This document shows positions 3,518-28,980 of a stretch of 64,000 nucleotides of DNA, piece after piece. The translations under genes were made by a program, and so were the position numbers. Every line of letters begins with the position of its first letter. Within the stretch, counting starts at the first letter, position 1. The notes beneath the pieces are model-generated. The model was given only the letters and a program-made list of their open reading frames with translations. It was not told the DNA's origin and did not search any database. This DNA is from a virus (Duplodnaviria > Caudoviricetes): the IMG/VR virus record IMGVR_UViG_3300009431_000002, positions 137,922 through 201,921 of that record; one strand, given 5' to 3'.

Positions 3518-3940
3518 TCAACGACGGAGCAGCGTCGCGCCCCCGAGGCCCAACGTGCCGAGACCAGCCATGCCTCCGGCGCCGGCCAGCGCACCGCCGC
3601 CGACGTCACGGGCGAGGTCGCCGCCCTCCTGGACCTGCTTGCCCCAGCCCTCGAGGCCCTCGCCCCAGCCGCGGCGTGTCTTGCCGGCGTCCAGGGCCTC
3701 CGTGCTCATCTTGCCCTTGGGCTGGGCCTTCACGGCGCGGGCCATGGCGTCGTCGCCCGACTGGGTGAGCTTGCCGCCCAGCCACTTGGCGCCGCGGCCG
3801 ATGAGCTTGCCGGCCTGCTCGATGAGCGCGAGCTTCTCGAGGTCGCTCAGGCCACGGGCGTCTGCCACCTTCTCGAGCTCGTCGAGGAACCCGCCGACGA
3901 AGGCGTGCTCGCATGCGGCCGCGTGCTTCTCCATATCCAT
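3518..3940 (-). CDS. Putative internal virion protein with FLDELEKVA leader, 140 aa
   Basis: SD GAGG; leader motif shared with neighbours; Gly/Ala/Leu-rich hydrophobic C-terminus. Confidence 0.6.
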   Translation of the reverse strand: MDMEKHAAACEHAFVGGFLDELEKVADARGLSDLEKLALIEQAGKLIGRGAKWLGGKLTQSGDDAMARAVKAQPKGKMSTEALDAGKTRRGWGEGLEGWGKQVQEGGDLARDVGGGALAGAGGMAGLGTLGLGGATLLRR

Positions 3941-3949
3941 GCGGTCCTC

Positions 3950-4735
3950 CTATCCAAAGTGGCGCGGCGTTGGCGCGTCGAGCCACAGATATTTGCTTTC
4001 GTGCGCTGACAGCCGAGGCTTGAGCCACCGCATGGCTTCCTGAGGCCCGCGGCTCTGCAACTGCTCCCGGTACGCGTCCTGTATCTGACTGTACTCTAAA
4101 TCTCGTCGGTCGACCGACCGCTCCAGCAACGCCCGAAACCGACGTCGCATAGCCTTCGGCATCTTCTGCCCAGGACGGCCAACGAACCCACCTGCGCGGG
4201 CGTCCCCGAACGCCTCGGACGCCTGCCTGGACAGACGCCTGTACTCCGGTTCGCGCAGCCTACGCCACAATCCAGCCGTCTCCCAGCCACCGCCCGGGCC
4301 CTCTAAGGTGTTAATGAGATTGGACTCCTGGACCAGCACATCTGGCTCTGCGTGACCAGAGACCAGTTCCGTGAGCTTCTCGCCGTAACGGCCAGCTTTC
4401 CGCTCCGCAGCCTCGTGTATGGTGGCGATCCCACGAAGGTTGGTTTGTGCCTCCCTGGAGGCGTGTGGGGCAATACCGCGACCCGCGGATGGCGCCACGT
4501 AGACGGCACCTGCAGCCCGAGCCAGGGCCGGGGACTGATCCTTTATGGCCTCCGGCAAACGCTTCGGTATGTGGAACGCGCCAGCGCGCATCGGTGTGGT
4601 GCCGAGCTCCTCCCAGGCTTTCGCTGGTAGCCTACGCAGTGGGGCGATGCGCTCGGTAGCCACGCGAAGATCTGCAGCTGACACCGCGATCTTCACAAGC
4701 TCGTCGCAAAACGCCGCCAGTCGCCTCCGCTCCAT
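3950..4735 (-). CDS. Putative internal virion protein with FCDELVKIA leader, 261 aa
   Basis: SD AGGAG; leader motif; basic mature part with HEAAE...H..E motif; codon usage atypical for the genome. Confidence 0.6.
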   Translation of the reverse strand: MERRRLAAFCDELVKIAVSAADLRVATERIAPLRRLPAKAWEELGTTPMRAGAFHIPKRLPEAIKDQSPALARAAGAVYVAPSAGRGIAPHASREAQTNLRGIATIHEAAERKAGRYGEKLTELVSGHAEPDVLVQESNLINTLEGPGGGWETAGLWRRLREPEYRRLSRQASEAFGDARAGGFVGRPGQKMPKAMRRRFRALLERSVDRRDLEYSQIQDAYREQLQSRGPQEAMRWLKPRLSAHESKYLWLDAPTPRHFG

Positions 4736-4743
4736 GCGATCTC

Positions 4744-7700
4744 CTAGTACCCGACGCGGAACTCCGTGGTGCCGGGTGTTCCTTTCTCAGGCTGCCCGAA
4801 CTCGGAGCCATAGGCTAGCGCCGGGATCGGATGCAACCCGTGGATGTTGCTGGACCAGCCCCTCAAGGCACCGTCGACGATGGTGTCCTTCAGCTTCTGG
4901 TACTGGAGCCGCGCCATCCAGTCCTCCTGCATGTCCAGCGGCGTCTGCGTGACCCCGCGCAGGATGGGCGTGAACTTGACGGGCTTCTTGCGCTTCTTGT
5001 TGTGGTACCCGACATTCGACGTGGACACCAGGTCTCCTGGGAGGAGGTCGGTGTCGCCGGCGTCATCCACTACGCCGAGGTCGGTGATGGCGCGGACCGC
5101 GGTCTCCACGTTGCGCCGGAGCACTGGGCCCGCGTCCGAGTACGCCTTGTGGACCTCGTCCGCGAGGTAGCCGCGCACCGTGTTGATGTTGGTCAGCGGC
5201 AGCATCTCGTGCGGATTGATGGGCCCGCCGGAGAGCCGGTCCCCCTTGCGGACCTTCACGCCCTTGCGCAGCTTGATCTTCTCGTTGACCAGGTGCTCGG
5301 GGACGTAGTGCCTCTTCCCCTTGACCCAGATGTTGAGGCCGCCGACCTCGGCGTCCTTCTCCACCCGCTCTACGGTGCCCGTGGTCGTCGCCAGCGTCGC
5401 CGAGTCCGCCAGCACCTTGGGCATGCGCAGCAGGTCCTGGACCCTGGTGAACTTGTCGGTGGACCGGCCGCTCTTCGAGGCAGCGACCCCGCCTTCGTGG
5501 AACGCGCGCATCGACAACTGCGTGGCGGGCTCGCCCAGTGCCTGCGACGCGATGACCCCGATGTTGGTCCCCGGGTCGGGCAGCTGGCCGTCCGGCAGGT
5601 TGCCGTAGTCCCGTGCGTACAGTCCCTTCGGGGCCACCGACTTCAGCGGGCTGCGGATCGACACGCGCCGGACGCCGCTGTTCTTCATCCTCGTCTGGAC
5701 CCGGTCGGTGACCTCGGTGTTCCTCGGCAGGACGTCGCCGCCCCGGAGCTTCACGGGCCGCGCGAGGTAGCGACCGATGACCTCGCGGTCCTCGGGGTCC
5801 GCGCTGATGCCGTCGTCGGCGTCGTCCGGCGCGTCCCCATCGACCACGACGAGGTTCATGGCAGAGTTCACGACGTCCTTGGTCAGCGCGCCGGGCTTGG
5901 CGGTCTCCTTCGTCTTCTGGATCATGCCCTTGCGCGCACCGTGCATGGCCGTGAAGTAGCTGGCGGAGTCCAGGCCCTCGGCGTAGCTCTTGGTGATCGG
6001 CACCGGCACGATGCGGTCGGCCGCGTCCTTCACCAACATGGGGGCGATGAGGATCTGCCGGACCTGGTCCCAGTTGCCGCGAGCACCGGCGTTGACCATC
6101 TCCAGGGCGTGGTTGCCCTGCCGCTCCAACTTCGGACGGATGGCCCGGCTCAGGTCCTCGGTGGCCTTGGAGTAGAGGTCGACGAGGCGCTGGTCCTTCT
6201 CCTCCTGGGTCAGCGACTTCATCTTCTGGATGCGCTTGGCCGCCTTGTGGACCCCAGCCAGGGCGCGGTCGCGCACAGCCTGCTGCGCCTGGAAGTCGTC
6301 GAGGGTGAACGACGCGCCAGACTCGTAGGCGTAGTCGTTGCCCATGTCCTTGAGGTCGTTGACGACGTCGCCGAAGTCGGCCGAGTGCTCCTTGGCCATC
6401 CGGGTGAGGAGGTCCTTGGTCGGGCCCTTGGACATCCGGAAGTCCTTGGAGTGGAGCAGCTGCGCGTCCCCTCGCATCCCCTCCGGCAGCACGCGGTCGA
6501 GGAGGATGCGACCGAGGGTCGTCTCCCTGCCCTTCACCGAGACCACGTCGGTCATGCCGAGGCCGAGCTTGCGGGCCTTGGCCGCCACCTGCGCCGGCGA
6601 GTCGAAGCGGTGCGACGTCTTCTTCCCCCACTCTGTCAGCCGGTACAGCCCGAGCTGGGCCTCGTGGCCCGGGGAGTACATCACCCGGCCGGTGGTGGTG
6701 TTGAACAGGTTGTTGGACGGGAAGAGCTTGCGCGCCTCCTCCACCGCCTCCTTGGCGAGCGGAACGTAGGCGGACATCTGGTCGCCGTCGAAGTCGGCGT
6801 TGTACCCCGAGGTCACCAGGGGGTGGATGCGGATGGCCTTGCCGCCGACGAGCTTGGGCTTGAACGCCATGACCCCGAACTTGTGGAGCACCGGGTCACG
6901 CTTCAGCAGCACCGGCCGCTCCTCCATCACGCGCTCAAGCGCGTGCCGGGCGACCTTGGAGTTGGTCCGGACCAGGTGCTGTGCCTCGGCGGGGACGTAG
7001 CCCTGCTCCCGCACCAGCTTTCGCACGACGAAGGGCTTGTACGTCTCCTTCGCCAGCTTGTAGGGGATGCCCACCTCGTCCAGTCCCATGTCGGGCTCGG
7101 GGATGATGGTGGACCGCATCGACAGGTCCTGCCGGCGGGAGACGAGGTTCTTCTGGAAGAACGAGTCCTTGGGCTGGGGCACGCCCTTCATCGTCTCCAT
7201 CACGCCGCGGTGCTTGCGGCCGTTGATGGTGGAGCCGGTCATCATCAGGGCGCGGAGCCCGTCGTAGAGCTCGGCGGTCAGCTTGCTCTTCGTCTTCTCC
7301 CCGAGTCCGGGGTCGTAGTCCCGCAGCTGGATGTTGGTGATGCCGAGGCTCTTGTACAGGCCGTTGATGTCCGAGTCGTTGAGCTTGCCCGACTCCATCA
7401 CCGAGACCGGCCGCATCACCGGCGGCATGACGGGCACGACCGAGGTGAAGTACGCCTGGTCGGGGGTCAGGTCGTTGGCGACCAGCGCCTCGAGGAACCG
7501 GATCTGCTTGCGCAGCTTCGCCATCGTCGACACGGCCTTGGTGGTCTCGGCCTGGCGACGGAGCGTCTCCAGCTGCTGCCGTGGGTCGATGGCCGCCAGC
7601 CGTGCGCGGATGGCTTCGGGCCCGGTCTTCCCGTCGAGCGTCTTCTCGCCGGCGATGACGGCCTGGTAGTCCTTGTTCTTCAGCCCCGTGAAGGTGAGGA

Positions 7701-10700
7701 TGGCCTTCTCGAACACCGGGTTCGGCATGGGCTCGGCCAGCCGGATGTGGGACCAGCGCTTGCCGTCCACACCGCCCGTGGCGTAGGGGTCGAACAGCCC
7801 GCCGCGCTCCGGCTTGAGGTCCTTGCCCCGGAACATCAGGCCCGGGTCCTTCAGTTCGCCGCTGGACATCCGCAGGATCTGCTCGTCGGTGAGGGGCGCG
7901 AGGTTCAGGGTCGAGCCCTGCTTCTTGACGTCGACGCCCAGCACGTTGAGGTAGCCGTTGAACTTGTCGAAGGCGAACGAGGTGGACGGCGGTGGGAGCT
8001 GCTCCCCAGTCTGCAGGGCCATCCACAGCTCGGGGTTCTTCTGGCTCTTGTAGGTGGCCATCTCCCGGATGTTGGCCTTCGCTCCATGAGCCAACATGGC
8101 GTACATGCCCAACGCGTCCATGGCCTGGGCGCCGTGGGCACCACCGCCCTTCGGAACCTCGTTGACGCTGTACGCGTACCCGGCCCCGCCCGCGCGGGCG
8201 TGGGACTTCTTGTCGATCTGGTGCTTGAGCTTGAGGATGTACTGGTCGCCCGTGAGGATCGGCCCCAGGCTCTGCCCGGACTTGGGGTCCACCAGCTCCT
8301 CGGTGTCGGACAGGCCCTCCTTCGCCAGCTCCGCCTTCATCTCCTTGGCGTAGTTGCGGTTGGCCCCGCCGAAGTTGTTGGTGACGTACCGCTTGCCCCG
8401 CTTCCGGGCGATCTTCCCGGCCATCGTCTCGAGGACCTGGCCGAGGTTGATGCGGCCGGGGATGCCAGCCGGGTTGAGCAGGACCTCGACCGGGGCGCCC
8501 TCTTCGCCAGAGGCGCGCGGCATCTCGTGGTCAGGCAGCACCGCCGTGACGATGCCCTTGTTGCCGTGGCGTCCGACCAGCTTGTCCCCGACGCGGGCAG
8601 GCTCCTCGGTGGCGACGTGGACGCTGACGTCCTTGCCCCGCTTGACGACGCGGACCACCCGGCCCTTCGTGTCCTTGTCCCAGACGATGGGCTTGGGGTC
8701 CATGTCCCGCACGAGGCTCTTGTGCAGCCGCGCCCGCATGCGACGCTCGCTGGTCTGCTCCGGCTTCTTCAGCGCGGCGACGAGGATGTCCCCCTCGTTG
8801 ACCTCCTGCCCCACCTGGATGACGCCGTCGTCGTCGAGCTTGTCGTAGACCTCGCGCTGCACGCGGTCGGGTGGCGCGTACGCGCGGAACTTCTTCTTGT
8901 CCAGGACCGTGTTCTTGGTCAGCCGCATGCTCTTGCGGTGCATGTGCTGGGACTTGAGCTTCTCGGCCGCGGACTCGGAGACGACGATGCCGTCCTCGAA
9001 GTTGTACCCACGGTACGGGATGTAGGCCACCCGGAGGTTCTTGCCCAGCGCGAGCTTGCCTTCGCGCGTGAAGTTGGTGTCGGCCACCGTCTGGCCGCGC
9101 TTGACCTTGTCCCCCTTCTTCACGAGGGGCTCGGAGTGCAGGACGCTGGACGCCTCGTTGAGCGGGAAGTGGTCGTAGAGCTGGACCTCCTCCAGCTTCC
9201 CGGCCTTGCTCCGGATCTTGATGGCGCCGGGCCTCACCGACACCACGGTGCCTTCCACCGGGGACTCGTGGGAGTTGAACTGGCCCAGCACGTCCTCGAA
9301 GGTGGACCTCACCTCGGTCTTGGACTGCACCAGCGGCTCGTCGCGGTCCACCAGGGGCACGGCCTGCTCCTGCTGCCGGGACGCCGTCATGGCCCTGTTG
9401 CCCTGGTTGTTCTGCAGGAAGGGCACGAGGTTGGTGGCCATGCTGAACAGGCCCTTGGCCGACGGGAGGATGTAGTCCACCTCGCTGGCCGGCACCTGCA
9501 TCACCTCGCCGCCCGGGCCGCTGACCGTCACCTCCTTACCGATGGGGACGAGCCGGTTCTTCACCTTCTTGTACTGGTCTGGGAAGGCGACGGTGGAGCG
9601 GTGCGCCTTGTGCGGATCGATCTTCTCCCGGCGGCCCGTCTTCGTGTTGTAGGCCTGGATGTAGAGGGTCTTGCCCTTCCGCGACACCCCCAGCGGGAGC
9701 TGGAGGGTGATGCCGGTGCGGTCACCCTCCGGGGTGTGGATGGGGTCGAGGAAGCCGAGGTGCGTCGGGTCGATGAGCTGGTCGGCGTCGGTCAGGGTGT
9801 GGGTGCTCTTGACCCCGCCCTCGCCCATGATGGTGGTCTTGGACTGGCCGGAGATGAACTCCAGCGGGTTGACCTGGTCGGGCATCTGCGACAGCTGGGT
9901 CTGGGTGAAGAAGGTCTTGATGGGCTTGTCGAACAGCCCGGGGGTCACGACCTCCCTGACGTCGGCCTTGCGGTCGATGTTGTTCTCCATCTTCCGCTGC
10001 AGATCCCAACGGCCGCGGGTCAGCCGCTCGGCCACGAAGTCGTCGACCGACAACGCGTCCTTGTAGAACAGGTGCTCACGCGCGTCCGGGGTGTCCTCGC
10101 CCCTCGAGATCCGCGCGAGCTTGTGGGCCGAGGCCAGGAGCGACGGGCCGCTCACCTTGTCGTAGGCCTTGCCCAGGGTGATCTTCGTGCTGTCGGGGCG
10201 CAGCACGGTCGTGCCGAACTCATCTCGGAGGTGGCGCTCGGCGTCCTCGATGCTGGGTGCCTGCTTGCCCGTCGACGCCTTGTAGAAGGCGCGCATGGCG
10301 ACGTCGTGCTTCTCCTTCTTCCCCTGGTTGAGGATCCCGCGGCCCAGCTCGCGCTCGATGGTGTCGTCGTCGACCCCCAGCACCTTGAGCATCGGGTAGA
10401 GCGGGATGTGGGAGTTGCCGTACCGGACCAGGAACCGCCGGTCCTCCGGGTGGAACCGGAGCCGGAAGTTCTTGCCTTTCGCCATGTTCCACTGGGACTC
10501 CAGCTCACCCTTGGCGCTGACGCGGTGGTACACCCCAGCCTTCAACCGGAACTGGTTGTCGACCTGGTACTCCTTGCCGTCGACGATGTAGGAGTGCCGC
10601 TTGGTCACGCGGGGCAGGTTGCCCACGCGCATGGACTTGCGGCTGATGACCTTGCCCGTCTCCTTGTTGACCAGGGAGACGTCGGCCATAACAGGGTCAG

Positions 10701-10890
10701 CCCAAGTCCTGCCCTTGAGCTTCGCGTCCTGCTGGGACCGGATGTCGTCGATGCCCTTCTTGTCGTCGACCCAGACCCGGTGGAGCTCCAGCCGGTTCTC
10801 TCGCCCCTCGAAGGGGAACATCGACGAGATGGCGTCGCTGACACGGTCTTTGAGGGCACCGTAGGAACCCTCTGGGTTCAGTGTCGCCAT
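4744..10890 (-). CDS. rpoBC: DNA-directed RNA polymerase, fused beta-beta' single polypeptide, 2048 aa
   Basis: Beta motifs QLSQ..DQ.NPL, TPEG, GYNFED, GDKLVGRHGNKG (8554-8589); beta' catalytic NADFDGD (6781-6801), bridge helix RKGMIQKTKETAKPG, trigger loop GEPATQLSMRAFH; junction VLGVDVKK-QG-STLNLAP near 7915-7926 with no stop. Confidence 0.97.
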   Translation of the reverse strand: MATLNPEGSYGALKDRVSDAISSMFPFEGRENRLELHRVWVDDKKGIDDIRSQQDAKLKGRTWADPVMADVSLVNKETGKVISRKSMRVGNLPRVTKRHSYIVDGKEYQVDNQFRLKAGVYHRVSAKGELESQWNMAKGKNFRLRFHPEDRRFLVRYGNSHIPLYPMLKVLGVDDDTIERELGRGILNQGKKEKHDVAMRAFYKASTGKQAPSIEDAERHLRDEFGTTVLRPDSTKITLGKAYDKVSGPSLLASAHKLARISRGEDTPDAREHLFYKDALSVDDFVAERLTRGRWDLQRKMENNIDRKADVREVVTPGLFDKPIKTFFTQTQLSQMPDQVNPLEFISGQSKTTIMGEGGVKSTHTLTDADQLIDPTHLGFLDPIHTPEGDRTGITLQLPLGVSRKGKTLYIQAYNTKTGRREKIDPHKAHRSTVAFPDQYKKVKNRLVPIGKEVTVSGPGGEVMQVPASEVDYILPSAKGLFSMATNLVPFLQNNQGNRAMTASRQQEQAVPLVDRDEPLVQSKTEVRSTFEDVLGQFNSHESPVEGTVVSVRPGAIKIRSKAGKLEEVQLYDHFPLNEASSVLHSEPLVKKGDKVKRGQTVADTNFTREGKLALGKNLRVAYIPYRGYNFEDGIVVSESAAEKLKSQHMHRKSMRLTKNTVLDKKKFRAYAPPDRVQREVYDKLDDDGVIQVGQEVNEGDILVAALKKPEQTSERRMRARLHKSLVRDMDPKPIVWDKDTKGRVVRVVKRGKDVSVHVATEEPARVGDKLVGRHGNKGIVTAVLPDHEMPRASGEEGAPVEVLLNPAGIPGRINLGQVLETMAGKIARKRGKRYVTNNFGGANRNYAKEMKAELAKEGLSDTEELVDPKSGQSLGPILTGDQYILKLKHQIDKKSHARAGGAGYAYSVNEVPKGGGAHGAQAMDALGMYAMLAHGAKANIREMATYKSQKNPELWMALQTGEQLPPPSTSFAFDKFNGYLNVLGVDVKKQGSTLNLAPLTDEQILRMSSGELKDPGLMFRGKDLKPERGGLFDPYATGGVDGKRWSHIRLAEPMPNPVFEKAILTFTGLKNKDYQAVIAGEKTLDGKTGPEAIRARLAAIDPRQQLETLRRQAETTKAVSTMAKLRKQIRFLEALVANDLTPDQAYFTSVVPVMPPVMRPVSVMESGKLNDSDINGLYKSLGITNIQLRDYDPGLGEKTKSKLTAELYDGLRALMMTGSTINGRKHRGVMETMKGVPQPKDSFFQKNLVSRRQDLSMRSTIIPEPDMGLDEVGIPYKLAKETYKPFVVRKLVREQGYVPAEAQHLVRTNSKVARHALERVMEERPVLLKRDPVLHKFGVMAFKPKLVGGKAIRIHPLVTSGYNADFDGDQMSAYVPLAKEAVEEARKLFPSNNLFNTTTGRVMYSPGHEAQLGLYRLTEWGKKTSHRFDSPAQVAAKARKLGLGMTDVVSVKGRETTLGRILLDRVLPEGMRGDAQLLHSKDFRMSKGPTKDLLTRMAKEHSADFGDVVNDLKDMGNDYAYESGASFTLDDFQAQQAVRDRALAGVHKAAKRIQKMKSLTQEEKDQRLVDLYSKATEDLSRAIRPKLERQGNHALEMVNAGARGNWDQVRQILIAPMLVKDAADRIVPVPITKSYAEGLDSASYFTAMHGARKGMIQKTKETAKPGALTKDVVNSAMNLVVVDGDAPDDADDGISADPEDREVIGRYLARPVKLRGGDVLPRNTEVTDRVQTRMKNSGVRRVSIRSPLKSVAPKGLYARDYGNLPDGQLPDPGTNIGVIASQALGEPATQLSMRAFHEGGVAASKSGRSTDKFTRVQDLLRMPKVLADSATLATTTGTVERVEKDAEVGGLNIWVKGKRHYVPEHLVNEKIKLRKGVKVRKGDRLSGGPINPHEMLPLTNINTVRGYLADEVHKAYSDAGPVLRRNVETAVRAITDLGVVDDAGDTDLLPGDLVSTSNVGYHNKKRKKPVKFTPILRGVTQTPLDMQEDWMARLQYQKLKDTIVDGALRGWSSNIHGLHPIPALAYGSEFGQPEKGTPGTTEFRVGY

Positions 10891-10911
10891 GGAACGTCCA
10901 GTTGTGCCATC

Positions 10912-10940
10912 AGGCTACAGTGCAAGGGATGCTGTGGCAA
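10912..10940 (-). promoter_or_regulatory. sigma70-type promoter TTGCCA-N17-TAGCCT for the RNAP/virion operon
   Basis: -35 at 10935-10940 (5/6 match), -10 at 10912-10917 with T-12, A-11, T-7 kept, 17-nt spacer, 21 nt before the rpoBC ATG. Confidence 0.6.
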
Positions 10941-10950
10941 CGGGTACAAG
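10919..10950 (+). promoter_or_regulatory. Putative phage-sigma promoter AGTGCAA-N17-GGTACAAG
   Basis: Same bipartite motif as 17269-17299; lies 29 nt upstream of the first gene of a plus-strand operon. Confidence 0.6.
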
Positions 10951-10979
10951 TAGAGTAACCAACAGAGGAGGTCTGCTGC

Positions 10980-11186
10980 ATGATTGAAATCGTACCCACC
11001 GAAGACCACACCCTCGACGATCTGGACGACGAGCCCATCGTGCTCGCCGGCCCGGGCGATGACGAGGATGACAACGATGACGAAGAGGAGGACAATGAGG
11101 AGGAGGTCGACGAGGACCGGGAGGACCGGACGAGTCCAGAGATCCTCGACGACGCCGTCGATGAGGCGATCTACGGCGAGGAGTAG
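10980..11186 (+). CDS. Small highly acidic protein, 68 aa
   Basis: SD GGAGG 8 nt upstream; Asp/Glu-rich; first gene after the putative phage promoter. Confidence 0.7.
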   Translation: MIEIVPTEDHTLDDLDDEPIVLAGPGDDEDDNDDEEEDNEEEVDEDREDRTSPEILDDAVDEAIYGEE

Positions 11187-11188
11187 CC

Positions 11189-11290
11189 ATGTTCTGGACG
11201 CTGGTGGGCGTCGGCCTGTTCCTGGGGCTGATGCTGTACATGAGACATTCGAGCGGGGACTTCGTGGCCTCGATGACCCGCTCGACCTGA
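11189..11290 (+). CDS. 33-aa single-pass membrane peptide (MFWTLVGVGLFLGLMLYMR...)
   Basis: Hand translation; SD GAGGAG; GC3-rich codons; hydrophobic N-terminal 17 residues. Confidence 0.55.
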   Translation: MFWTLVGVGLFLGLMLYMRHSSGDFVASMTRST

Positions 11291-11709
11291 CCGCCGACGA
11301 CGCGGCGCCCGACGCTACGTTCGCACTGGCGTACTGCACCCTGCTCGCCCACGACATCATCGCTGAGGCGTTGGACGGGGACCCCGAGGACTGGCCCGAC
11401 TACATCCAGCTGTGCTGCGACGAAGTGAACTGCGCCGAGTGCGCGCTCCTCGCCGGCTTCCTGGAGGGTTCCGAGTTCTCGTGGGTCTGCGCCACCTGCG
11501 CCACCGCCTTCCCACACCACATCGGCTTCTGGATCTCGGGGACCTGCGACGCCTGCGACGGCGTCGTCACAACAGGTACACGCCGCTCCCCCGTCGTCAC
11601 GACCGACGACGACCACGCCGAGTCCTGCGTCCTTCAACTGATCGAGGAGCAGCCGGTCCTCCGCGACCGGCTCCGCCGGATGCAAGCACTGGTGGAGCGG
11701 CATGCGTAG
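11287..11709 (+). CDS. Cys-rich hypothetical protein (start uncertain)
   Basis: Coding-like part of track ORF 10984-11709; CCDEVNCAEC, CATC, CDAC motifs; no ATG/GTG where the coding signal begins, only a CTG overlapping the upstream TGA. Confidence 0.55.
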   Translation: MTADDAAPDATFALAYCTLLAHDIIAEALDGDPEDWPDYIQLCCDEVNCAECALLAGFLEGSEFSWVCATCATAFPHHIGFWISGTCDACDGVVTTGTRRSPVVTTDDDHAESCVLQLIEEQPVLRDRLRRMQALVERHA

Positions 11710-12007
11710 GGCGCTACGATTCAGCGACCTCACGCGCCGCGCCAAGGAGGACCGAGAGGAGGCCCTCCGCCAGGACGACGCCGGCGAACCACGAGTCATC
11801 TGCGACTACTGCGACCAGCCAATCGTGCCCGGAGAGGTCGGCTTCGCCATCCAGCAATTCGAGGTGGTGGTGAGCAACAAGTCCGGGCGCGACGTCTACC
11901 AGGACATCCACATGGAGGACGGGTCCTCCGAGAAGTGCTACCACTTCACGTGTCTCGCCGAGCACATCACCCAGCCGTGCATCATCGGAGCCGAGCATGA
12001 AATGTGA
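11702..12007 (+). CDS. Zn-finger protein (C-x2-C...H-x2-C), 101 aa
   Basis: CDYCD...YHFTCL; paralog of next gene. Confidence 0.7.
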   Translation: MRRALRFSDLTRRAKEDREEALRQDDAGEPRVICDYCDQPIVPGEVGFAIQQFEVVVSNKSGRDVYQDIHMEDGSSEKCYHFTCLAEHITQPCIIGAEHEM

Positions 12008-12266
12008 CTGGTGCGACTGCGAGTTCGAGCCCGATGAGGAGGCCATGCTGGTCATCGAGGGGCAGATGACCCTCTCCCCCAAGTCCGAGCGCCTGGTGCT
12101 GGGCAAGGAGATGACCCCCAAGTACTTCCACAAGGCCTGCCTCTACGAGGTGGCCATGCACGCGATGGAGCTCGACGACGAGTACCTCGCCCAGGTCGGC
12201 GCCAACGTGCGCGAGATGCTGGAGGAGGAACTGCGCGAGAAGATCTACGACGAGCTGACTGCCTGA
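11997..12266 (+). CDS. Zn-finger protein (C-x2-C...H-x2-C), 89 aa
   Basis: CDWCD...FHKACL; paralog of previous gene; last gene before terminator. Confidence 0.7.
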   Translation: MKCDWCDCEFEPDEEAMLVIEGQMTLSPKSERLVLGKEMTPKYFHKACLYEVAMHAMELDDEYLAQVGANVREMLEEELREKIYDELTA

Positions 12267-12281
12267 CGACACAGTGTCGTC
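12265..12281. repeat. Dispersed palindrome copy 1 (GACGACAC-A-GTGTCGTC)
   Basis: Perfect 8-bp arms with 1-nt centre; core CGACACWGTGTCG at 12267-12279. Confidence 0.85.
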
Positions 12282-12287
12282 GACGCC

Positions 12288-12311
12288 GAGTGGGGGCCGC
12301 CCCACTCTTTT
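12288..12311 (+). terminator. Intrinsic terminator GAGTGGGG-GCCG-CCCCACTC-TTTT
   Basis: 8-bp perfect stem, 4-nt loop, T-tract, at a convergent junction. Confidence 0.8.
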
Positions 12312-12320
12312 AGATCGGGA

Positions 12321-14318
12321 TCAGACGACCGCCCGCTCGAGGGGCCGGCGCGGGGGCTTCTGCTCGGGGAGGGGCTGCTGAAGCGGATTCAGCGTGTCTC
12401 GCTGGCCTCCATCGCCCTCGCTCAGCAGGGCCTGGACCATGCGGTAGATGTCGGGGCTGCCCATCCGCAGCTTCTGCATGGCCTGCGGGAACATGGCCGG
12501 CTGCTCGTCCTGGATCCGGCGCATCTCCGTGGCGATGCGTCGCGCGACGAAGCGGACGTCGACCATCTCGTTGCCGCCGGTCATCTGCCCCATGTGCATG
12601 GGGGACTGGACCTCCTGCGGGAGGTTGTCGACGTACACGGCCGCGCCGTCCGGCACACCCGGACCGATCTGCTCGCCGCGCATGACCGATGGCTGGGTCT
12701 GCGGCAGCTCGGCGTAGGACGGCGGGGACTCCGGCGGCTGCTGCATCTGCATCTGCATGTGCTGGGCCTGGATCTCGTAGCGGAGGGCCGCCAGCTGGGC
12801 CTCCCCCTGCGCCGCGGCCTGGGCCACCACCATCTCGCGGTTGGCTGCCACCTGCTTGACCAGCTCCTGCTTCTTCCGCTTCTCCTCGGTCTCCAAGTCC
12901 TCGCCGAGCTCGCGGAGGAACGTGGTGTCGGAGATCTTCATGGCCTGGTTCGCCTGGAAGTAGACCATCAGCCTCTGCAGGTCGTCGGCCATCTTGAACC
13001 GCTCGAACCGGATGGGCACCCTCGGCCAGCCGAGGAACTCGCAGATGCGGCCCATGACGAAGTCGCCAACCAGCCGGAGTTGGTCGTCGCGGTACCCACT
13101 GAACTGGTTCTCGAGGATGCGCATCGACACGTTGGTGCCGGTGTACTGCATGCCACCGAAGATGAACTCGATGGGCACGTTCATGCCCGCGATGATCTGC
13201 TCGCTCCAGACCCGCAGCTCCTGGTGGAGGATGAGCGCCCGTCCCTGGCCGCCGATCATCTCGTGGCCGAGTGGGATGGGCATCAGCGGGATGTAGTTGG
13301 GGTCCTGGCGCCAGCGAGCGATCTCCTCCTGGACCTGGTCCTTCCACTCCCCGAGGTTGATCATCGTGATGGGGTCGCCGGTCTGCCCGTTGGCCTGCGG
13401 GTACAGCACGCGCAGCGGGACGATGTGCTCCTGGGCGATCATCTCCTGGCCCTTGCGCAGGACCTGCAGGTAGAAGATGTCCTTGAGCACGGGCAGGACC
13501 AGCGGCATGCCCCAGCCCTGGTCCTTCTGGGCGATGATGGGCCGCTTGAGGTGGAACAGCGTGCCCGGCGCGAACTTCACCGACTTCTTCTTCCGCATCG
13601 CCTCGATGAAGGTGTCGGGCACCGTCTCGATGACGTTGCGGCGGCCGATGGTGATGGCGTTCTTCAGCTTCTGCGGCAGCTTGTAGAAGTAGGTCGGGTC
13701 GGTGACGCCCTCGTTGTCGTCGATCTCCACCCGCTCCGGGTCCCACCGGACCAGCCGGATGCCCTTGGCCGTCCGCATGGCCTCGTCGTGGACCTCGGCC
13801 GGCCGGCGCTCCCCGCACTCGGGGCAGGTCAGGTAGTAGACCATCTCCTGGTAGCGGTAGTGCCTGCGGAGCTTGTCGATGGGCGCCTTGTGGCCGCAGT
13901 GACGGCACTTGAGGTGCTTGACGAAGGGGAAGTGCACCGTGACGAAGGCGTTGCCGTAGTTGTAGTAGTCCAGCCCCACCTCGATCTGGAACTTGCGGAC
14001 CTGGAGCTGGTCCTCGAAGAGGTGGCGGTACCGCTCTCGGACGTCCTTGTCGTCGGCCTCGTAGATGATCTTGGTGATGGGGTACTCGGCCAGCTTGTAC
14101 ACGACCGCGTTGATGAGCGGGTTCGTGAAGAAGAAGTACCGGCACCACTGCAGCATCTGCTTGAGGCGCGCGGGGAAGTACGTCTGGGCGGCGTCGAAGA
14201 ACGGGTTGGGGTACCGCACCCCGGTCCGCTGCATGCTCGAGCCGAGCGTGACGGGCGTGCGGGAGAAGCGGGTCAGCCCGTCACCGTAGGAGACGCCGGT
14301 GTACCCGAGGCCTGGCAT
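12321..14318 (-). CDS. Probable portal protein with Zn-ribbon insert, 665 aa
   Basis: Size, helical character and motifs reminiscent of portals (NPLINAVVYKLAEY, DYYNYGNAF, WGMPLVLPVL, IIAGMNVP); CRHC...CPEC insert; Gln/Pro-rich tail. Assignment is inference. Confidence 0.6.
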   Translation of the reverse strand: MPGLGYTGVSYGDGLTRFSRTPVTLGSSMQRTGVRYPNPFFDAAQTYFPARLKQMLQWCRYFFFTNPLINAVVYKLAEYPITKIIYEADDKDVRERYRHLFEDQLQVRKFQIEVGLDYYNYGNAFVTVHFPFVKHLKCRHCGHKAPIDKLRRHYRYQEMVYYLTCPECGERRPAEVHDEAMRTAKGIRLVRWDPERVEIDDNEGVTDPTYFYKLPQKLKNAITIGRRNVIETVPDTFIEAMRKKKSVKFAPGTLFHLKRPIIAQKDQGWGMPLVLPVLKDIFYLQVLRKGQEMIAQEHIVPLRVLYPQANGQTGDPITMINLGEWKDQVQEEIARWRQDPNYIPLMPIPLGHEMIGGQGRALILHQELRVWSEQIIAGMNVPIEFIFGGMQYTGTNVSMRILENQFSGYRDDQLRLVGDFVMGRICEFLGWPRVPIRFERFKMADDLQRLMVYFQANQAMKISDTTFLRELGEDLETEEKRKKQELVKQVAANREMVVAQAAAQGEAQLAALRYEIQAQHMQMQMQQPPESPPSYAELPQTQPSVMRGEQIGPGVPDGAAVYVDNLPQEVQSPMHMGQMTGGNEMVDVRFVARRIATEMRRIQDEQPAMFPQAMQKLRMGSPDIYRMVQALLSEGDGGQRDTLNPLQQPLPEQKPPRRPLERAVV

Positions 14319-15257
14319 CTACGCCCTCCTCTCGGCCGAAGGCGCGAAGAGCGTGGTGCTGGGCGTCGTCGCCCCCGAGGGCGTGGGCGGCGGCCGCAGG
14401 GACTGCTGCCTGCGCTTGTGGTAGCCCAGCAGCTTGTCGATGCCCTTGCCCAGCGTGCCCATCGACCTGGAGCCGACCTCCCAGCCCGCGATGGATCCCC
14501 CGAAGCCGGTGGGCATCCCCGCGACCATGCCGGCGTGACCGCCGAGGTGCTGCAGCGCTCGTTCTGCGTGGCCCCGCGGCTTCCCGCCACCGAAGGCGTG
14601 CGGGTCGTCGCGCTTGACGATGTGAGGGGAGAAGGCTCCGCCGAAGCCCGCCAGCATGGACTTGCCTCCCACCGGCGCGTACTTGGTCAGCTCGCCGGAC
14701 CCAGTCCAGCCGCGGCGCGACAGCTCCTCAGCCAGCTCACGAGGCCGGGTCGCCACGTCACGGAGCCGCTGCGACTCGTCGAAGAGGTGACTCGTCTCGG
14801 CGTGGGGCCGCACGGCCTTGGCTTGCTCCCCCATCGCGCGCCGAGTGCCCGAGCCGCCGGCCCACTCCGGTGCGTACCACCTGTAGGCGCCCTCGGCCTT
14901 CCGGGTCTCCTTCATACCCTCCTGCAGCGCCTTGTGCGCGGCGGGGTCACCCCTGACGGCCTGCATGATGTCCTCGGGCAGGCCCTTGGTCTTGGCGTAG
15001 CTGGCCCAGTCGTCGAACCCGGCCCGGCGGGCCTCGAGCATCAGCCGCTGCGTGGCCCCCTCCACCGGGCTGAGGTGCTCCCAGCCCCGACGAAGGATCT
15101 GTCCCGTGCGGCGCGGGTCGAAGGTCTTGGCGGCGGTGGCGGTGCCGTGCGCCGCGGAGGTGAGCTGGTTGAGGAGGAAGCGAAGCGGGTTGGCCTGCTT
15201 CTCCAGCTCGTCCTCGAACGCATCCAGTCGAGCTGGCGTCAGGGCGCGAGAAGCCAT
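14319..15257 (-). CDS. Putative internal virion protein with FEDELEKQA leader, 312 aa
   Basis: Start revised to ATG at 15257 (SD GGAG); no Cys; Gly/Ala-rich amphipathic segments near the C-terminus. Confidence 0.65.
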   Translation of the reverse strand: MASRALTPARLDAFEDELEKQANPLRFLLNQLTSAAHGTATAAKTFDPRRTGQILRRGWEHLSPVEGATQRLMLEARRAGFDDWASYAKTKGLPEDIMQAVRGDPAAHKALQEGMKETRKAEGAYRWYAPEWAGGSGTRRAMGEQAKAVRPHAETSHLFDESQRLRDVATRPRELAEELSRRGWTGSGELTKYAPVGGKSMLAGFGGAFSPHIVKRDDPHAFGGGKPRGHAERALQHLGGHAGMVAGMPTGFGGSIAGWEVGSRSMGTLGKGIDKLLGYHKRRQQSLRPPPTPSGATTPSTTLFAPSAERRA

Positions 15258-16126
15258 GGCCGCATCATCTCCATCTGTTGGGCCAGCTGGCGCCGGCGCA
15301 GCTTCATGTACTCCCGCGCCCGCAACACTCTGGCCACGCATCGATCCACCTGGGTCTCCCCCAGATCTACTTGGTCCAGGCCCTTACCGGCAACTGATTC
15401 GTACCGCTCCTTGACCGGCCGGTAGTCGTTGATGAAGTAGCGCTCGACCTTCCCGTGCCCCAGCTTCTTCGCCGGCGAGTCCGCCGTGGGCTTGCCATCG
15501 AGGTTGTGCTCACCTCGGAAGCGCTTGGCGCAGACGTCACACGTGTCGTCCTCGAGGTCGTCCTCGTCCTCGTTGCCGCAGCTGGTACACCTGTACATCG
15601 GCCGCGCGGCCAGCCGCTGTGCGAAGTCCAACGGCGGCGGGAGGAACCACACGCCGTCCGACAGCGCGGCCGCGGCGACGAACCGGGCCACCTCGTCCGA
15701 GAACTTCCGGCCGTCCACACTCTCCATCATGTCCACGCCGGCCGCCAGCGCGTCGAAGGAGGGCTGCTGGATGATGTCGAACCTCGGGATGTTGTTGTTC
15801 AGCGCCTGGATGGTGGGGACGAAGGCGTCCCAGCTGATCCAGCAGGCGTCCGTGGCGTGCAGCGTCTTCACCGCCATGATCTTGTTGCGGTTCAGCTCGC
15901 TGATCTCCAGCTGTCCACCGCCGAGCAGAGCCTGCCCGAAGTACCGCTTGATGCCGTCCCACACAGCCTCCGGCACCCACTCCCACCAGTCCTTCCCGAA
16001 GGCGGTGACGATGACGGCGTCGAGGACCAAGGGGTGTGCGTCGTGGTGGCGAAAGAGCGTGGCTGGCCGAATGTCGTCCGGCTGGGTGGTCAAAGCGGTG
16101 GCCGGGGACGCATCAGCCATGCGCAA
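15239..16126 (-). CDS. Hypothetical protein with Zn ribbon (CTSC...CDVC), 295 aa
   Basis: GC3-rich ORF overlapping both neighbours in the portal operon. Confidence 0.65.
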   Translation of the reverse strand: MRMADASPATALTTQPDDIRPATLFRHHDAHPLVLDAVIVTAFGKDWWEWVPEAVWDGIKRYFGQALLGGGQLEISELNRNKIMAVKTLHATDACWISWDAFVPTIQALNNNIPRFDIIQQPSFDALAAGVDMMESVDGRKFSDEVARFVAAAALSDGVWFLPPPLDFAQRLAARPMYRCTSCGNEDEDDLEDDTCDVCAKRFRGEHNLDGKPTADSPAKKLGHGKVERYFINDYRPVKERYESVAGKGLDQVDLGETQVDRCVARVLRAREYMKLRRRQLAQQMEMMRPWLLAP

Positions 16127-17207
16127 TCGTCTGCATGCCGACAGGGCTGTGGCCCGTGTCCGAGGCCAGCCGGGCGAGCGTGACCTTGTTGATGTCGGGC
16201 AGCGACTTGAACACGGAGACGGGGTCCTTGGCGAACTGCGTGGCGAAGTCGTCGCCGAAGTGGTCCTTGAGCAGCTGCCGATTGGCAGACAGGAGCCGCA
16301 GGTCGGCCTCGGTCACGCGCTCGGCGCCCTCCACCCACACGAAGTCCTCGGCGGTCTTCTCGAAGCAGGTGGAGACGGGGTCCAGCACGTGCTGGTCCCA
16401 GAGGTGGTCGAGGCCCGTCTGCTCGTCGAACAGCGTCAGGGCCGTGGCGAGCTTCTCGGGGTTGGCGCGTTCGTCGCCGGCGGACTTCACGAGGACGTCG
16501 AGCACCGGGTGCATGCTGGCCGGCACGTACTGGCGCCGCGCCTCGATGTACATACCGGCGTCGGGAGCGAGCGCGGTGCCGGCGTACTTCTCGATGTCGT
16601 GCGATGGCACGGGGATCCCCAGGTCGGCGGCGCGGGACGCCAGCTTCGTGGCGAACTCGCGGCGGTCGTTGGGATGGAAGCGCAGCATGTTCTCCCGGAA
16701 GAAGCCCATGCCGGCGGCGACCTCCTCGTAGGAGCGCAGCGGGTACTTGCCGAGGGCCACGCAGTCCGCTTCGGCCAGCTTCTCCTGCTCCATCACCGGC
16801 GCAGTGGCCAGCACGGAGTCCACGACCTCGGCCGTCTTCACGCCATCGGCGGTGAGGGCCAGCCCGATCTTCACCAGATCCAGCGGGACCTGCATCTGGT
16901 GGGCCTCGTGGGCGTCGATCAGGTTGTTCACGACCTGCAGCTGGGCCTCCTTGGACAGGTGGCCCCGCTGGGACAGGAAGTAATGGGCGGACATCCATGT
17001 ATTGCCGGGGTCGATGGTGGCATACTTGCAGAACAGGTTGCCGTCGACGGACGCGACGAGCGCGAAGTTCTTGGCCGGCAGAGCCTGACGCTCCTCGGGA
17101 GACAGGAAGGCTGCCGTCTTGGCCATGTCGGGGAGTTGGTCCTGGGGGACGGTACTGGCGAGCAGCGCCGCCTGGTCGTCATAGACGTCGAGGATCAATC
17201 CAGACAT
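16113..17207 (-). CDS. Probable head-assembly protein, K-x-A dense, 364 aa
   Basis: SD AGGAG; first gene of portal operon; 10 of 17 Lys are followed by x-Ala. Confidence 0.65.
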   Translation of the reverse strand: MSGLILDVYDDQAALLASTVPQDQLPDMAKTAAFLSPEERQALPAKNFALVASVDGNLFCKYATIDPGNTWMSAHYFLSQRGHLSKEAQLQVVNNLIDAHEAHQMQVPLDLVKIGLALTADGVKTAEVVDSVLATAPVMEQEKLAEADCVALGKYPLRSYEEVAAGMGFFRENMLRFHPNDRREFATKLASRAADLGIPVPSHDIEKYAGTALAPDAGMYIEARRQYVPASMHPVLDVLVKSAGDERANPEKLATALTLFDEQTGLDHLWDQHVLDPVSTCFEKTAEDFVWVEGAERVTEADLRLLSANRQLLKDHFGDDFATQFAKDPVSVFKSLPDINKVTLARLASDTGHSPVGMQTIAHG

Positions 17208-28844: not shown

Positions 28845-28980
28845 CGACGAGATGGAGAAGCAAGCCCGGGAGGGCGGCGGCTGCCCCGTGTGCGGCGGCA
28901 CCGTCGACTACTCCGGCAACGTGCCCGTGTGCCCCAAGTGCGGCACCGCTCCCTTCGAGAAGCGCCCGGAGGGGAAGTGA
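28789..28980 (+). CDS. Small Zn-ribbon protein (CPVC...CPKC), 63 aa
   Basis: SD GGAGG; EMEKQA directly before the ribbon. Confidence 0.7.
   Translation: MKPDPRDDEGMDKYSVVVDDEMEKQAREGGGCPVCGGTVDYSGNVPVCPKCGTAPFEKRPEGK

What the first reader, a model, noticed from the sequence alone, without database searches (positions are those of the whole stretch)
3863..15218. Shared F-x-D-E-L-x-K-x-A leader on unrelated virion-operon proteins: candidate new capsid-targeting/cleavage signal
Seen: three otherwise dissimilar proteins carry nearly the same 9-mer within their first 25 residues: FLDELEKVA (3863-3889), FCDELVKIA (4685-4711), FEDELEKQA (15192-15218). Looser versions occur in 34543-35556 (FVEHL...EVKTA) and 28789-28980 (DDEMEKQA). 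Established: T4 internal proteins use a short N-terminal capsid-targeting sequence removed after L/I-x-E; phiKZ cuts after S/A/G-x-E. Inference: an analogous system with a different, Lys-x-Ala specificity. I know of no description of it, but could not search. No prohead protease was recognised in this window.
Basis: partly seen in the sequence, partly recalled or inferred. Interest (0 to 1): 0.8.

Follow-up and report, generated by a model that had tools for sequence, protein, structure and literature searches.

The report
Shared leader tag on phage head cargo
A 202-kb uncultured phage and its many relatives start several unrelated proteins with the same short two-part tag (Phe-x-Asp-Glu-Leu, then Lys-x-Ala), most likely a cut-off loading label for proteins packed into the virus head, as in phage T4 but with a different sequence, and untested by experiment.

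Summary
F-x-D-E-L-x-K-x-A occurs five times in the 201,921-bp genome, against about 0.0005 expected. All five lie near the N-terminus of minus-strand genes in late or virion operons. Three are at the stated window coordinates and two lie outside the window.

- **Spread:** about 45 unrelated proteins in IMG/VR viral contigs begin with the same leader. Five complete relatives carry 2-7 copies each, and reversed-pattern controls gave none.
- **Conservation:** in the family of the gene upstream of portal, found through its C-terminal domain, the leader is as conserved as the protein core. Conservation stops right after the Ala.
- **Two boxes:** F-x-D-E-L is followed by hydrophobic-E-K-x-A. The Phe-to-Lys spacing is almost always 6 or 9.
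- **Link to the protease:** the second box matches near-invariant sites flanking a T4 gp21/assemblin-fold head protease encoded 15.5 kb before the window. A conserved K-x-A also sits at the capsid protein N-terminus.

My best reading (about 0.55) is a T4-like capsid-targeting propeptide removed by that protease. Neither cleavage nor packaging has been measured. Other windows of this scan noted the Lys-x-Ala code and DEL-x-K-[IV]-A leaders before. I found no published description. It is a new variant of a known kind.

The parts
3518..3940 (-). Gene for a 140-aa protein (P0001). It has three [LM]-E-K-x-A sites in its first 38 residues and a C-terminal Gly/Ala-rich hydrophobic tail. It lies downstream of the RNA polymerase and upstream of the spike gene.
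   Evidence: RBS AGGAGG, GC3 0.91. Orthologues follow the RNAP in L002 and L005 with the same leader type.
3863..3940 (-). Leader of P0001, residues 1-26. It ends in FLDELEKVA, which is the 9-mer at 3863-3889.
3950..4735 (-). Gene for a 261-aa orphan protein (P0002), probably acquired recently.
   Evidence: It has no homologue among 5.8 billion proteins. It is the only open frame in this stretch and has an AGGAG RBS. Its GC3 is 0.70 against about 0.9 for its neighbours.
4685..4735 (-). Leader of P0002, residues 1-17: MERRRLAA, then FCDELVKIA.
   Evidence: it uses TTT and CTT codons, unlike the other copies
14319..15257 (-). Gene for a 312-aa all-alpha protein (P0003/P0124) immediately upstream of portal. 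The family has 109 representatives at 50% identity.
15192..15257 (-). Leader of P0003, residues 1-22, ending in FEDELEKQA. The model shows a helix at residues 8-21 and a helix break at A22-N23.
2373..2414 (-). Variant leader MDLFLDESPKTKTA at the start of the 714-aa gene 270-2414(-). That protein also holds 11 K-x-A sites against 4.6 expected.
35482..35556 (-). Diverged leader (M-x7-SFVEHL-x8-VKTA) at the start of the 337-aa gene 34543-35556(-). The protein has Gly/Ala-rich hydrophobic segments.
   Evidence: It was judged by reading only, so membership is tentative.
16113..17207 (-). 364-aa protein two genes upstream of P0003. It has the strongest K-x-A excess in the genome (10 against 2.2 expected) and is a likely multiply cut head-internal protein.
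12321..14318 (-). Portal protein (context). It is about 30% identical to the portal of Salmonella phage Arash and to a protein of Vibrio phage D69.
4744..10890 (-). Fused beta-beta' RNA polymerase, 2048 aa (context). It carries no leader.
   Evidence: The Arash homologue gp206 is the most abundant protein of that virion (PMC10585845).

Best explanation
The 9-mer is the core of a two-part N-terminal propeptide used by a large clade of roughly 180-210-kb phages.

Box 1, [A/S/G]-F-x-D-E-L, together with box 2 forms one amphipathic helix. I infer that this helix docks the protein onto a component of the assembling prohead core, so that the protein is enclosed in the capsid.

Box 2, hydrophobic-(E)-K-x-A, is the recognition site of the phage's own T4 gp21/herpes-assemblin-fold head protease (genome 120729-122420, minus strand). 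I infer that the protease cuts after the Ala once the shell has closed, which removes the tag and frees the mature protein. The same protease would trim itself, the capsid protein N-terminus and the K-x-A-rich scaffold-like proteins.

The cargo is mostly small proteins with glycine/alanine-rich hydrophobic segments, plus a few enzymes. That fits proteins ejected with the DNA.

Shown here: the motif, its N-terminal position, its portability, its conservation, its two-box architecture, the protease fold, and the co-occurrence of leader and protease. Inferred: cleavage (I put it at about 0.7) and targeting (about 0.45).
For: 1. The motif cannot be chance and sits at N-termini: 5 hits against about 0.0005 expected, all 9-18 residues from a start codon.

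2. It is portable. The five carriers are otherwise dissimilar. P0002 is an orphan with foreign codon usage that still carries the leader. About 45 distinct proteins there begin M-x(5-12)-[AGS]-F-x-D-E-L-x-K-[ILVTM]-A and share nothing downstream. Three of the 28 leader proteins scanned matched Pfam families, one each: NUDIX, MazG and, weakly, TsaE.

3. An unbiased family test. 109 homologues of P0003 were found through their C-terminal domain. In a 68-sequence alignment the leader columns A13, F14, D16, E17, L18, K20 and A22 carry 2.3-4.1 bits, as much as the core G58/W59. The columns right after A22 fall to 1.4 bits or less.

4. Two boxes. Phe-to-Lys spacing is 6 in 38 sequences and 9 in 23, and other in only 2 (one each at 8 and 10). 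In both main forms the residue two before the Lys is L/M/I and the residue before it is mostly E.

5. The AlphaFold2 model of P0003 (pLDDT 82.8) has the leader as helix 8-21 with a break at A22-N23.

6. The protease. The AlphaFold2 model, residues 45-270, aligns to T4 gp21 (5jbl) at Z 8.8, rmsd 3.0 A over 133 residues, and to herpesvirus proteases at Z 5-7.7. H119, H120 and S180 are invariant.

7. The same motif appears at expected processing sites. [FL]-E-K-[TV]-A-[ASG] is present in 45 of 46 sequences at residues 27-32, and E-K-[TV]-A-S in about 40 of 46 at 283-288. Both lie in low-confidence linkers flanking the protease domain. A K-x-A sits about 7 residues before the conserved G-x-x-I-R-D-x-L-R-E in the capsid protein of this phage, of L136 and of L137, and at the matching N-terminal place in Arash gp226. 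K-x-A is in excess in head-module proteins.

8. Co-occurrence. 22 of 25 large leader-bearing contigs encode this protease family. At least two of the three exceptions have motif hits that look like chance hits: one at a protein's C-terminal end, one in a provirus. Five complete relatives have 2-7 strict 9-mers each (23 in total) against 0 for reversed-pattern controls. Several of these lie 1-1.5 kb downstream of the protease gene, as here.

9. Co-folding of protease residues 32-287 with the P0002 leader gave weak support: score 0.47, best of 3 controls 0.01. The mark was reached by 58 of 80 solved complexes and 2 of 110 mismatched pairs. At 0.60 or under it was reached by only 7 of those 80 and by both mismatches that passed. 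The runs agree in at least 58% of contacts, and the partner's pLDDT is at least 42.

10. Precedent. The 10-residue T4 CTS has its targeting determinants at residues 4 and 7 and its processing determinants at 8 and 10 (PMC9026906). N-terminal residues of P1 DarB also suffice to target a reporter to the capsid (PMC9024508).
Against: - No experiment exists on any member: no mature N-termini, no virion proteome of a leader protein, no protease assay.
- The residue after the Ala is S/A/G at the protease's own sites, but in leaders it is variable (G, A, F, I, V, W, R, D, N, Q). That could mean some leaders are not cut, or are cut elsewhere.
- A helical substrate must unfold locally to enter a protease groove.
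- The packaged-enzyme candidate next door, the RNA polymerase, has no leader, so the tag is not the only route into the particle, if it is a route at all.
- Co-occurrence of leader and protease is confounded by shared ancestry within one clade.
- The cultured relative Arash has K-x-A sites but showed no strict Phe-box leader.
- K-x-A alone is only mildly enriched genome-wide: 245 against 203 expected.
- The co-folding pass is weak, by the tool's own calibration.
Confidence: 0.55

Rival explanations
1. The leader is only a processing propeptide. It is cut by the head protease, but the F-x-D-E-L box does not target anything. It might be an extended substrate-recognition element. It might instead be a pro-segment that keeps membrane-active glycine-zipper cargo soluble or inactive until it is inside the capsid, with targeting done by the mature parts.
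For: The motif is shared with the protease's own flanking sites. Much of the cargo has hydrophobic Gly/Ala-rich segments that could be harmful if free. The co-folding run places the leader on the protease with weak support: 0.47 against a best control of 0.01 (with the caveats given under the best explanation).
Against: Ordinary K-x-A sites in the protease, capsid protein and most scaffold-like proteins lack the Phe box, so the box is not needed for recognition. The box keeps a fixed helical register (spacing 6 or 9) and is as conserved as the cut site. Soluble enzymes (NUDIX, MazG) and the Arg-rich P0002 also carry it.
Confidence: 0.2
2. The leader is a permanent docking helix. It stays on the mature protein and binds a virion partner such as portal, the inner shell surface, the scaffold remnant or the packaged RNA polymerase. 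Its resemblance to the protease site would then be coincidental or regulatory.
For: The amphipathic helix has a conserved hydrophobic stripe. The residue after the Ala varies, unlike the S/A/G at the protease's own sites. A near-identical helix (…G-R-x-M-A-x-[AG]-F-x-[DN]-E-L…K-x-A) occurs inside scaffold-like proteins, including the 219-aa gene next to the protease.
Against: Conservation stops exactly at the Ala, and the model shows a helix break there. K (66 of 68) and A (56 of 68) are the most conserved positions, which matches the protease code and not a generic helix. Several proteins stack multiple E-K-x-A sites in their first 40 residues, as expected for redundancy in a propeptide.
Confidence: 0.12
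3. The leader has nothing to do with the capsid. It could be a signal for membrane insertion or secretion, a lysis-regulation signal, or a tag read by a host factor.
For: Many carriers have glycine-zipper-like hydrophobic segments. Several carriers have no identifiable virion role.
Against: The leader is acidic and amphipathic, with no hydrophobic core or twin-arginine motif. In this genome every copy lies in minus-strand late operons, next to portal, spike or the protease-capsid block. It travels with one head-protease family and shares that family's conserved site motif.
Confidence: 0.07
4. The repeats are a chance or compositional coincidence, or come from recent duplication of one gene start.
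For: None beyond the shortness of the motif.
Against: Expected count is about 0.0005 against 5 observed. Codons differ between copies. Flanking residues are unrelated. The motif is conserved across families at 25-45% identity, and reversed-pattern controls gave 0.
Confidence: 0.01

Closest known systems
Phage T4 capsid targeting sequence (CTS) of internal proteins IPI-III and Alt, removed by prohead protease gp21 (Mullaney and Black 1996; reviewed in PMC9026906)
   Same: Both are short N-terminal tags shared by otherwise unrelated, fast-evolving cargo proteins. Both have a targeting part followed by a processing part. Both end in the cleavage motif of a gp21-fold head protease that also trims the capsid, scaffold and itself. 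In both, the cargo set varies between related phages.
   Different: The sequences are unrelated (T4: MKTYQEFIAE, cut after L/I-x-E). Here the presumed P1 is Ala with Lys at P3, not Glu at P1. Function is shown for T4 and only inferred here.
Herpesvirus assemblin (MEROPS S21), release and maturation sites (V/L/I)-x-A|S
   Same: The protease fold matches (Z 5-7.7). Ala is at P1 and Ser/Ala/Gly follows at the protease's own sites. The sites bracket the protease domain.
   Different: P3 is Lys, not an aliphatic residue. The residue after the Ala is variable in the leaders. Herpesviruses have no N-terminal leader system on unrelated cargo. I recalled the assemblin consensus from memory and did not test it here.
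phiKZ gp175 / SPN3US gp245 giant-phage head proteases (S/A/G-x-E or A-x-E; PMC10052503)
   Same: These are large phages with packaged RNA polymerase and many ejected proteins. N-terminal propeptides are removed from head proteins, including two short ones (20 and 24 residues) in SPN3US, and propeptides contain redundant sites.
   Different: They cut after Glu. No shared leader motif is reported for them. Most of their propeptides are 111-254 residues long.
Phage P1 DarB N-terminal capsid localisation signal (PMC9024508)
   Same: N-terminal residues are sufficient to bring a foreign protein into the capsid.
   Different: It is described for one protein, not for a shared motif across many proteins. 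It is not described there as a protease-removed tag.

Membership tests
T4-type capsid-targeting propeptide system (CTS plus prohead protease) | The same short N-terminal peptide on otherwise unrelated proteins of one phage | tested here: met
   There are 5 strict copies plus 2 variants in this genome, 2-7 per complete relative, and about 45 unrelated carriers in IMG/VR.
T4-type capsid-targeting propeptide system (CTS plus prohead protease) | The phage encodes a gp21/assemblin-fold head maturation protease | tested here: met
   The model of the 563-aa protein aligns to 5jbl at Z 8.8, rmsd 3.0 A over 133 residues. The top Foldseek rows are all herpesvirus proteases. His and Ser are invariant.
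T4-type capsid-targeting propeptide system (CTS plus prohead protease) | The tag ends in that protease's cleavage motif and is removed | tested here: inconclusive
   Hydrophobic-E-K-x-A flanks the protease domain, and a conserved K-x-A sits at the capsid protein N-terminus. Conservation stops at the Ala. The co-fold gave weak support: 0.47 against a best control of 0.01. Cleavage itself has not been measured.
T4-type capsid-targeting propeptide system (CTS plus prohead protease) | Separable targeting and processing determinants | tested here: inconclusive
   Two sequence boxes with spacing 6 or 9 are shown. Their separate functions have not been tested.
T4-type capsid-targeting propeptide system (CTS plus prohead protease) | The tag is sufficient to load a foreign protein into capsids, and the carriers are found in virions | not testable with these tools
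   No cultured phage with the Phe-box leader was found. The Arash proteome has no peptide-level data.
T4 gp21 (MEROPS S77) or phiKZ gp175 specificity class | Cleavage after Glu (L/I-x-E or S/A/G-x-E) | tested here: not met
   The conserved sites end in Ala with Lys two residues before it. No conserved x-E site occupies these positions.
Herpesvirus assemblin (S21) specificity class | (V/L/I)-x-A|S with Ser after the cut | tested here: inconclusive
   Ala at P1 is met. S/A/G follows at the protease's own sites, but the residue after the Ala is variable in leaders. P3 is Lys, not aliphatic.
Sec/Tat-type signal peptide | Basic N-region followed by a hydrophobic core of about 10 or more residues | tested here: not met
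   The leader alignment is acidic and amphipathic with no hydrophobic core. I judged this by reading; no predictor was run.

The most novel reading that the evidence does not exclude
The F-x-D-E-L / hydrophobic-E-K-x-A leader is a true portable address label. It would be necessary and sufficient to load any protein into the capsids of a very large, almost wholly uncultured clade of about 200-kb phages, and it would be removed by a head protease with a Lys-x-Ala specificity new to phage biology. The injected protein set of each such phage could then be read from its genome. That set would include glycine-zipper membrane proteins, NUDIX and MazG enzymes, and lineage-specific orphans such as P0002. 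The tag could also be reused for protein delivery.
Probability: 0.4. Interest if true: 0.75.

Novelty: new variant of a known kind. Interest (0 to 1): 0.62.

Why it matters
Proteins packed in phage heads and injected with the DNA act first in an infection, for example in anti-defence, transcription and membrane passage. They are very hard to recognise from sequence. A conserved leader tied to a specific head protease would allow that cargo to be predicted across hundreds of uncultured large phages.

It would also define a new cleavage specificity for the gp21/assemblin protease fold. And it would provide a second natural tag-and-trim loading system beside T4's, which has been used to package foreign proteins.

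The concept itself is not new. What is new is the sequence code, its two-box form and the breadth of the clade.

Tried and rejected
- **Family scans of carriers and neighbours:** Pfam and PHROGs gave nothing for P0001, P0002, P0003 or the genes around genome 921-1403.
- **PDB sequence searches for the protease:** both the single-sequence and the profile search found nothing. Only the fold comparison worked.
- **P0002 homologues:** the search returned only P0002 itself.
- **P0003 against cultured phages:** tblastn against 50,697 cultured-phage records found no match.
- **P0003 fold:** Foldseek of the model against BFVD gave no match at E 0.001 or better. The best row, at E 0.38, was a 'glycine zipper domain' protein, which is not usable.
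- **Arash:** the supplements hold no peptide data. The looser regex scan of the 41-kb portal-region locus found no leader. A whole-genome scan for E-[LF]-x-K-x-A found 10 places, against 9 for the reversed control. They cluster in head-module genes gp223-225, not at N-termini.
- **Nearest-ATG statistic for IMG/VR hits:** it is confounded by a conserved Met/Leu 3-4 residues before the Phe, so I used distance to the upstream stop and manual start assignment instead.
- **Literature:** three searches for a Lys-x-Ala head-protease code or a shared leader found nothing.
- **First shuffle script:** it timed out and was rerun smaller.
- **The motif at 28840-28866(+):** rejected as a member. It has no Phe box and lies in the replication module.

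Full report
**What the window is.** The window is the last 64 kb (137922-201921) of a single 201,921-bp viral record with about 67% G+C. It encodes:
- a portal protein at 12321-14318(-), about 30% identical to the annotated portal of Salmonella phage Arash and to a hypothetical protein of Vibrio phage D69;
- a 2048-aa fused beta-beta' RNA polymerase at 4744-10890(-);
- a VgrG-like spike at 2419-3510(-);
- a plus-strand replication block;
- very large, unassigned minus-strand proteins, probably tail or baseplate parts.

**Check of the observation.**
For the third gene, orthologues in five related contigs start at MASR..., which puts the Phe at residue 14.
- Across the whole genome F.DEL.K.A occurs five times in six frames, against about 0.0005 expected. 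Codon-block shuffles gave no hits.
- The two extra copies are at genome 1353-1379 and 119972-119998. The second lies in the head module, in a small gene downstream of the protease and a scaffold-like gene and upstream of a 566-aa K-x-A-rich gene and the capsid gene.
- All five copies lie 9-18 residues from a start codon, all on the minus strand. They use different synonymous codons, so the constraint is on the peptide.
- Two diverged versions head genes 270-2414 (MDLFLD...KTA, conserved in relatives) and 34543-35556 (SFVEHL...VKTA).
- The motif at 28840-28866(+) lacks the Phe box and sits among replication genes. I do not count it.

**How far the leader spreads.**
After removing duplicates and obvious chance hits, about 45 distinct proteins begin M-x(5-12)-[A/S/G]-F-x-D-E-L-x-K-[I/L/V/T/M]-A and share nothing after the Ala.
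- Positions the pattern did not fix also show preferences: a small residue before the Phe, a hydrophobic residue 3-4 before it, and Ile between Lys and Ala.
- The cargo is mostly 70-300-aa proteins with Gly/Ala-rich hydrophobic stretches. Three of the 28 leader proteins scanned matched Pfam families, one each: NUDIX, MazG and, weakly, TsaE.
- Five complete relatives of 191-210 kb have 2-7 strict copies each (23 in all). The reversed pattern gave none.
- P0002 is instructive. It has no homologue anywhere. Its GC3 is 0.70 where its neighbours have about 0.9. It has its own ribosome-binding site. Its leader is spelled with TTT and CTT codons. It looks like a recently imported gene that came with, or acquired, the tag.

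**An unbiased test.**
- The exhaustive profile search with P0003 found 109 representatives, almost all matched through the C-terminal domain (residues about 155-295), so they were not selected for the leader. Most of them still start with it.
- In a 68-sequence alignment, columns A13, F14, D16, E17, L18, K20 and A22 carry 3.3, 3.3, 2.3, 3.5, 3.3, 4.1 and 3.4 bits. That is on a par with the invariant core (G58 4.2, W59 3.9). The columns directly after A22 drop to 1.4 bits or less.
- The AlphaFold2 model (pLDDT 82.8) shows the leader as helix 8-21, with a break at A22-N23 before the next helix.

**Two boxes.**
- In this family the distance from Phe to Lys is 6 in 38 sequences and 9 in 23, and other in only 2 (one each at 8 and 10).
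- In both main forms the residue two before the Lys is L/M/I and the residue before the Lys is mostly Glu. In the long form the D-E-L box sits one helical turn further upstream (F-x-D-E-L-x-x-hydrophobic-E-K-x-A).
- So the 9-mer is the compact fusion of an [A/S/G]-F-x-D-E-L box with a hydrophobic-E-K-x-A box.
- The hydrophobic positions (Phe, Leu, the extra hydrophobic residue, and Ile/Ala) fall on one face of a helix.

**Link to the head protease.**
- The 563-aa protein at genome 120729-122420(-) has only a faint PHROG match to a head maturation protease and no Pfam or PDB sequence match.
- Its AlphaFold2 model, residues 45-270, aligns best to T4 gp21 (5jbl: Z 8.8, rmsd 3.0 A, 133 residues) and then to a run of herpesvirus proteases (Z 5-7.7). 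The 27 top Foldseek rows are all herpesvirus proteases.
- The family is large: 312 proteins at E 1e-5 or better among the 8000 candidates scored, many on 100-217-kb contigs.
- In a 46-sequence alignment H119, H120 and S180 are invariant.
- Two sites stand out. [F/L]-E-K-[T/V]-A-[A/S/G] at residues 27-32 has K and A in 45 of 46 sequences. E-K-[T/V]-A-S at 283-288 has them in about 40 of 46. Both lie in low-confidence linkers on either side of the protease domain. That is the layout expected for self-release sites, as in assemblin and as suspected for gp21 (PMC9026906).
- The capsid protein has K-x-A about 7 residues before the conserved G-x-x-I-R-D-x-L-R-E in this phage, in L136 and in L137, and at the matching N-terminal place in Arash gp226.
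- The proteins between the protease and the capsid gene, a 302-aa protein upstream of the protease, and the 364-aa protein at window 16113-17207 are crowded with K-x-A: 16, 7, 9 and 10 sites against 6.5, 3.4, 2.6 and 2.2 expected. The syntenic Arash genes gp220-225 show the same pattern.

**Co-occurrence and co-folding.**
- Of 25 large contigs that hold a pattern hit, 22 encode the protease family. At least two of the three that do not have hits that look like chance: one at a protein's C-terminal end and one in a provirus. This fits a functional pair but is confounded by common descent.
- Co-folding protease residues 32-287 with the first 45 residues of P0002 gave weak support: score 0.47, best of three controls 0.01. 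By the tool's calibration the mark was reached by 58 of 80 solved complexes and 2 of 110 mismatched pairs. At 0.60 or under it was reached by only 7 of those 80 and by both mismatches that passed. The runs agree in at least 58% of contacts, and the partner's pLDDT is at least 42. I count this as a small nudge, not as evidence of cleavage.

**Mechanism.** The best-supported reading is a T4-like system. An amphipathic leader helix brings the protein into the assembling prohead core, and the head protease cuts after the Ala.
- T4's own 10-residue CTS is also split: targeting depends on residues 4 and 7, processing on residues 8 and 10 (PMC9026906).
- A nearly identical helix (…G-R-x-M-A-x-[A/G]-F-x-[D/N]-E-L…K-x-A) sits inside the scaffold-like proteins of this clade, including the 219-aa gene next to the protease. 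This suggests, speculatively, that cargo leaders imitate a scaffold helix and co-assemble with it.
- Cleavage (about 0.7) is better supported than targeting (about 0.45).
- Against the reading: the residue after the Ala is far more variable in leaders than at the protease's own sites. The RNA polymerase next door has no leader, although its Arash homologue is the most abundant virion protein. No member has any experimental data.

**Comparison with known systems.**
- It works like T4 CTS/gp21, but the sequence code is different: Ala at P1 and Lys at P3, where T4 and phiKZ/SPN3US have Glu at P1 (PMC10052503).
- The Ala at P1 and the fold recall herpesvirus assemblin, whose sites as I recall them are (V/L/I)-x-A|S. 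I did not test that consensus here.

**Prior work.**
- Three literature searches found no description of a Lys-x-Ala head-protease code or of this leader.
- Other windows of this scan did note the Lys-x-Ala code and 'DEL-x-K-[IV]-A' or 'portable leader' motifs in related phages. Those are unchecked AI notes.
- I re-derived the protease fold, its flanking sites and the Arash sites independently.
- As far as those brief notes show, this report adds the unbiased family test, the 6-or-9 spacing rule, the abrupt conservation boundary and helix break at the Ala, the orphan carrier P0002, and the leader-protease co-occurrence count.

**Verdict.** This is a new variant of a known kind of system, of solid interest, and it awaits one straightforward biochemical or proteomic test.

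Noticed in passing
window 3950-4735 (-): P0002 is a true orphan, with no homologue among 5.8 billion proteins. Its GC3 is 0.70 in a genome where neighbouring genes have about 0.9, so it looks like a recent import. It is inserted between the RNA polymerase and the P0001 gene, which are adjacent in relatives L002 and L005.
   Followed up: partly
genome 120729-122420 (-), outside the window (L017:10729-12420): Homologues of the head protease include forms interrupted by inteins (Pfam PF14528, PF05203, PF13403). Others carry a fused PF18823 domain, and one source names such a protein 'inorganic pyrophosphatase'.
   Followed up: no
window 4744-10890 (-): A single 2048-aa chain joins the beta (Rpb2 domains) and beta' (Rpb1 domains) parts of a multisubunit RNA polymerase, directly downstream of portal. 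It has no leader. The Arash homologue is that virion's most abundant protein (PMC10585845).
   Followed up: partly
P0003 family (P0124-P0232); window 14319-15257 (-): Many members begin M-G-[D/N]-P-L before the leader. This is a second conserved N-terminal element of unknown meaning. The family's conserved core (…S-R-R-G-W-T-G-x-G-x-x-T-K-Y-x-P-x-G…) matches no known fold or family.
   Followed up: partly
window 35560-36051 (-): This 163-aa protein has a signal-peptide-like start, an acidic stretch, two K-x-A sites and then hydrophobic membrane-like segments. It lies next to the diverged-leader gene 34543-35556.
   Followed up: no
window 63276-63965 (-): A sigma-70-like protein (regions 2 and 3, plus an HTH) lies at the end of the window on the late strand. 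Arash also packages a sigma factor according to its proteome table.
   Followed up: no
genome 132230-135073 (-), just before the window: This 947-aa protein starts M-E-K-A-A, so a K-x-A sits at the very N-terminus. The 269-aa protein at genome 136056-136865 starts with …G-L-V-K-T-A-F. These are further candidate short propeptides without the Phe box.
   Followed up: no
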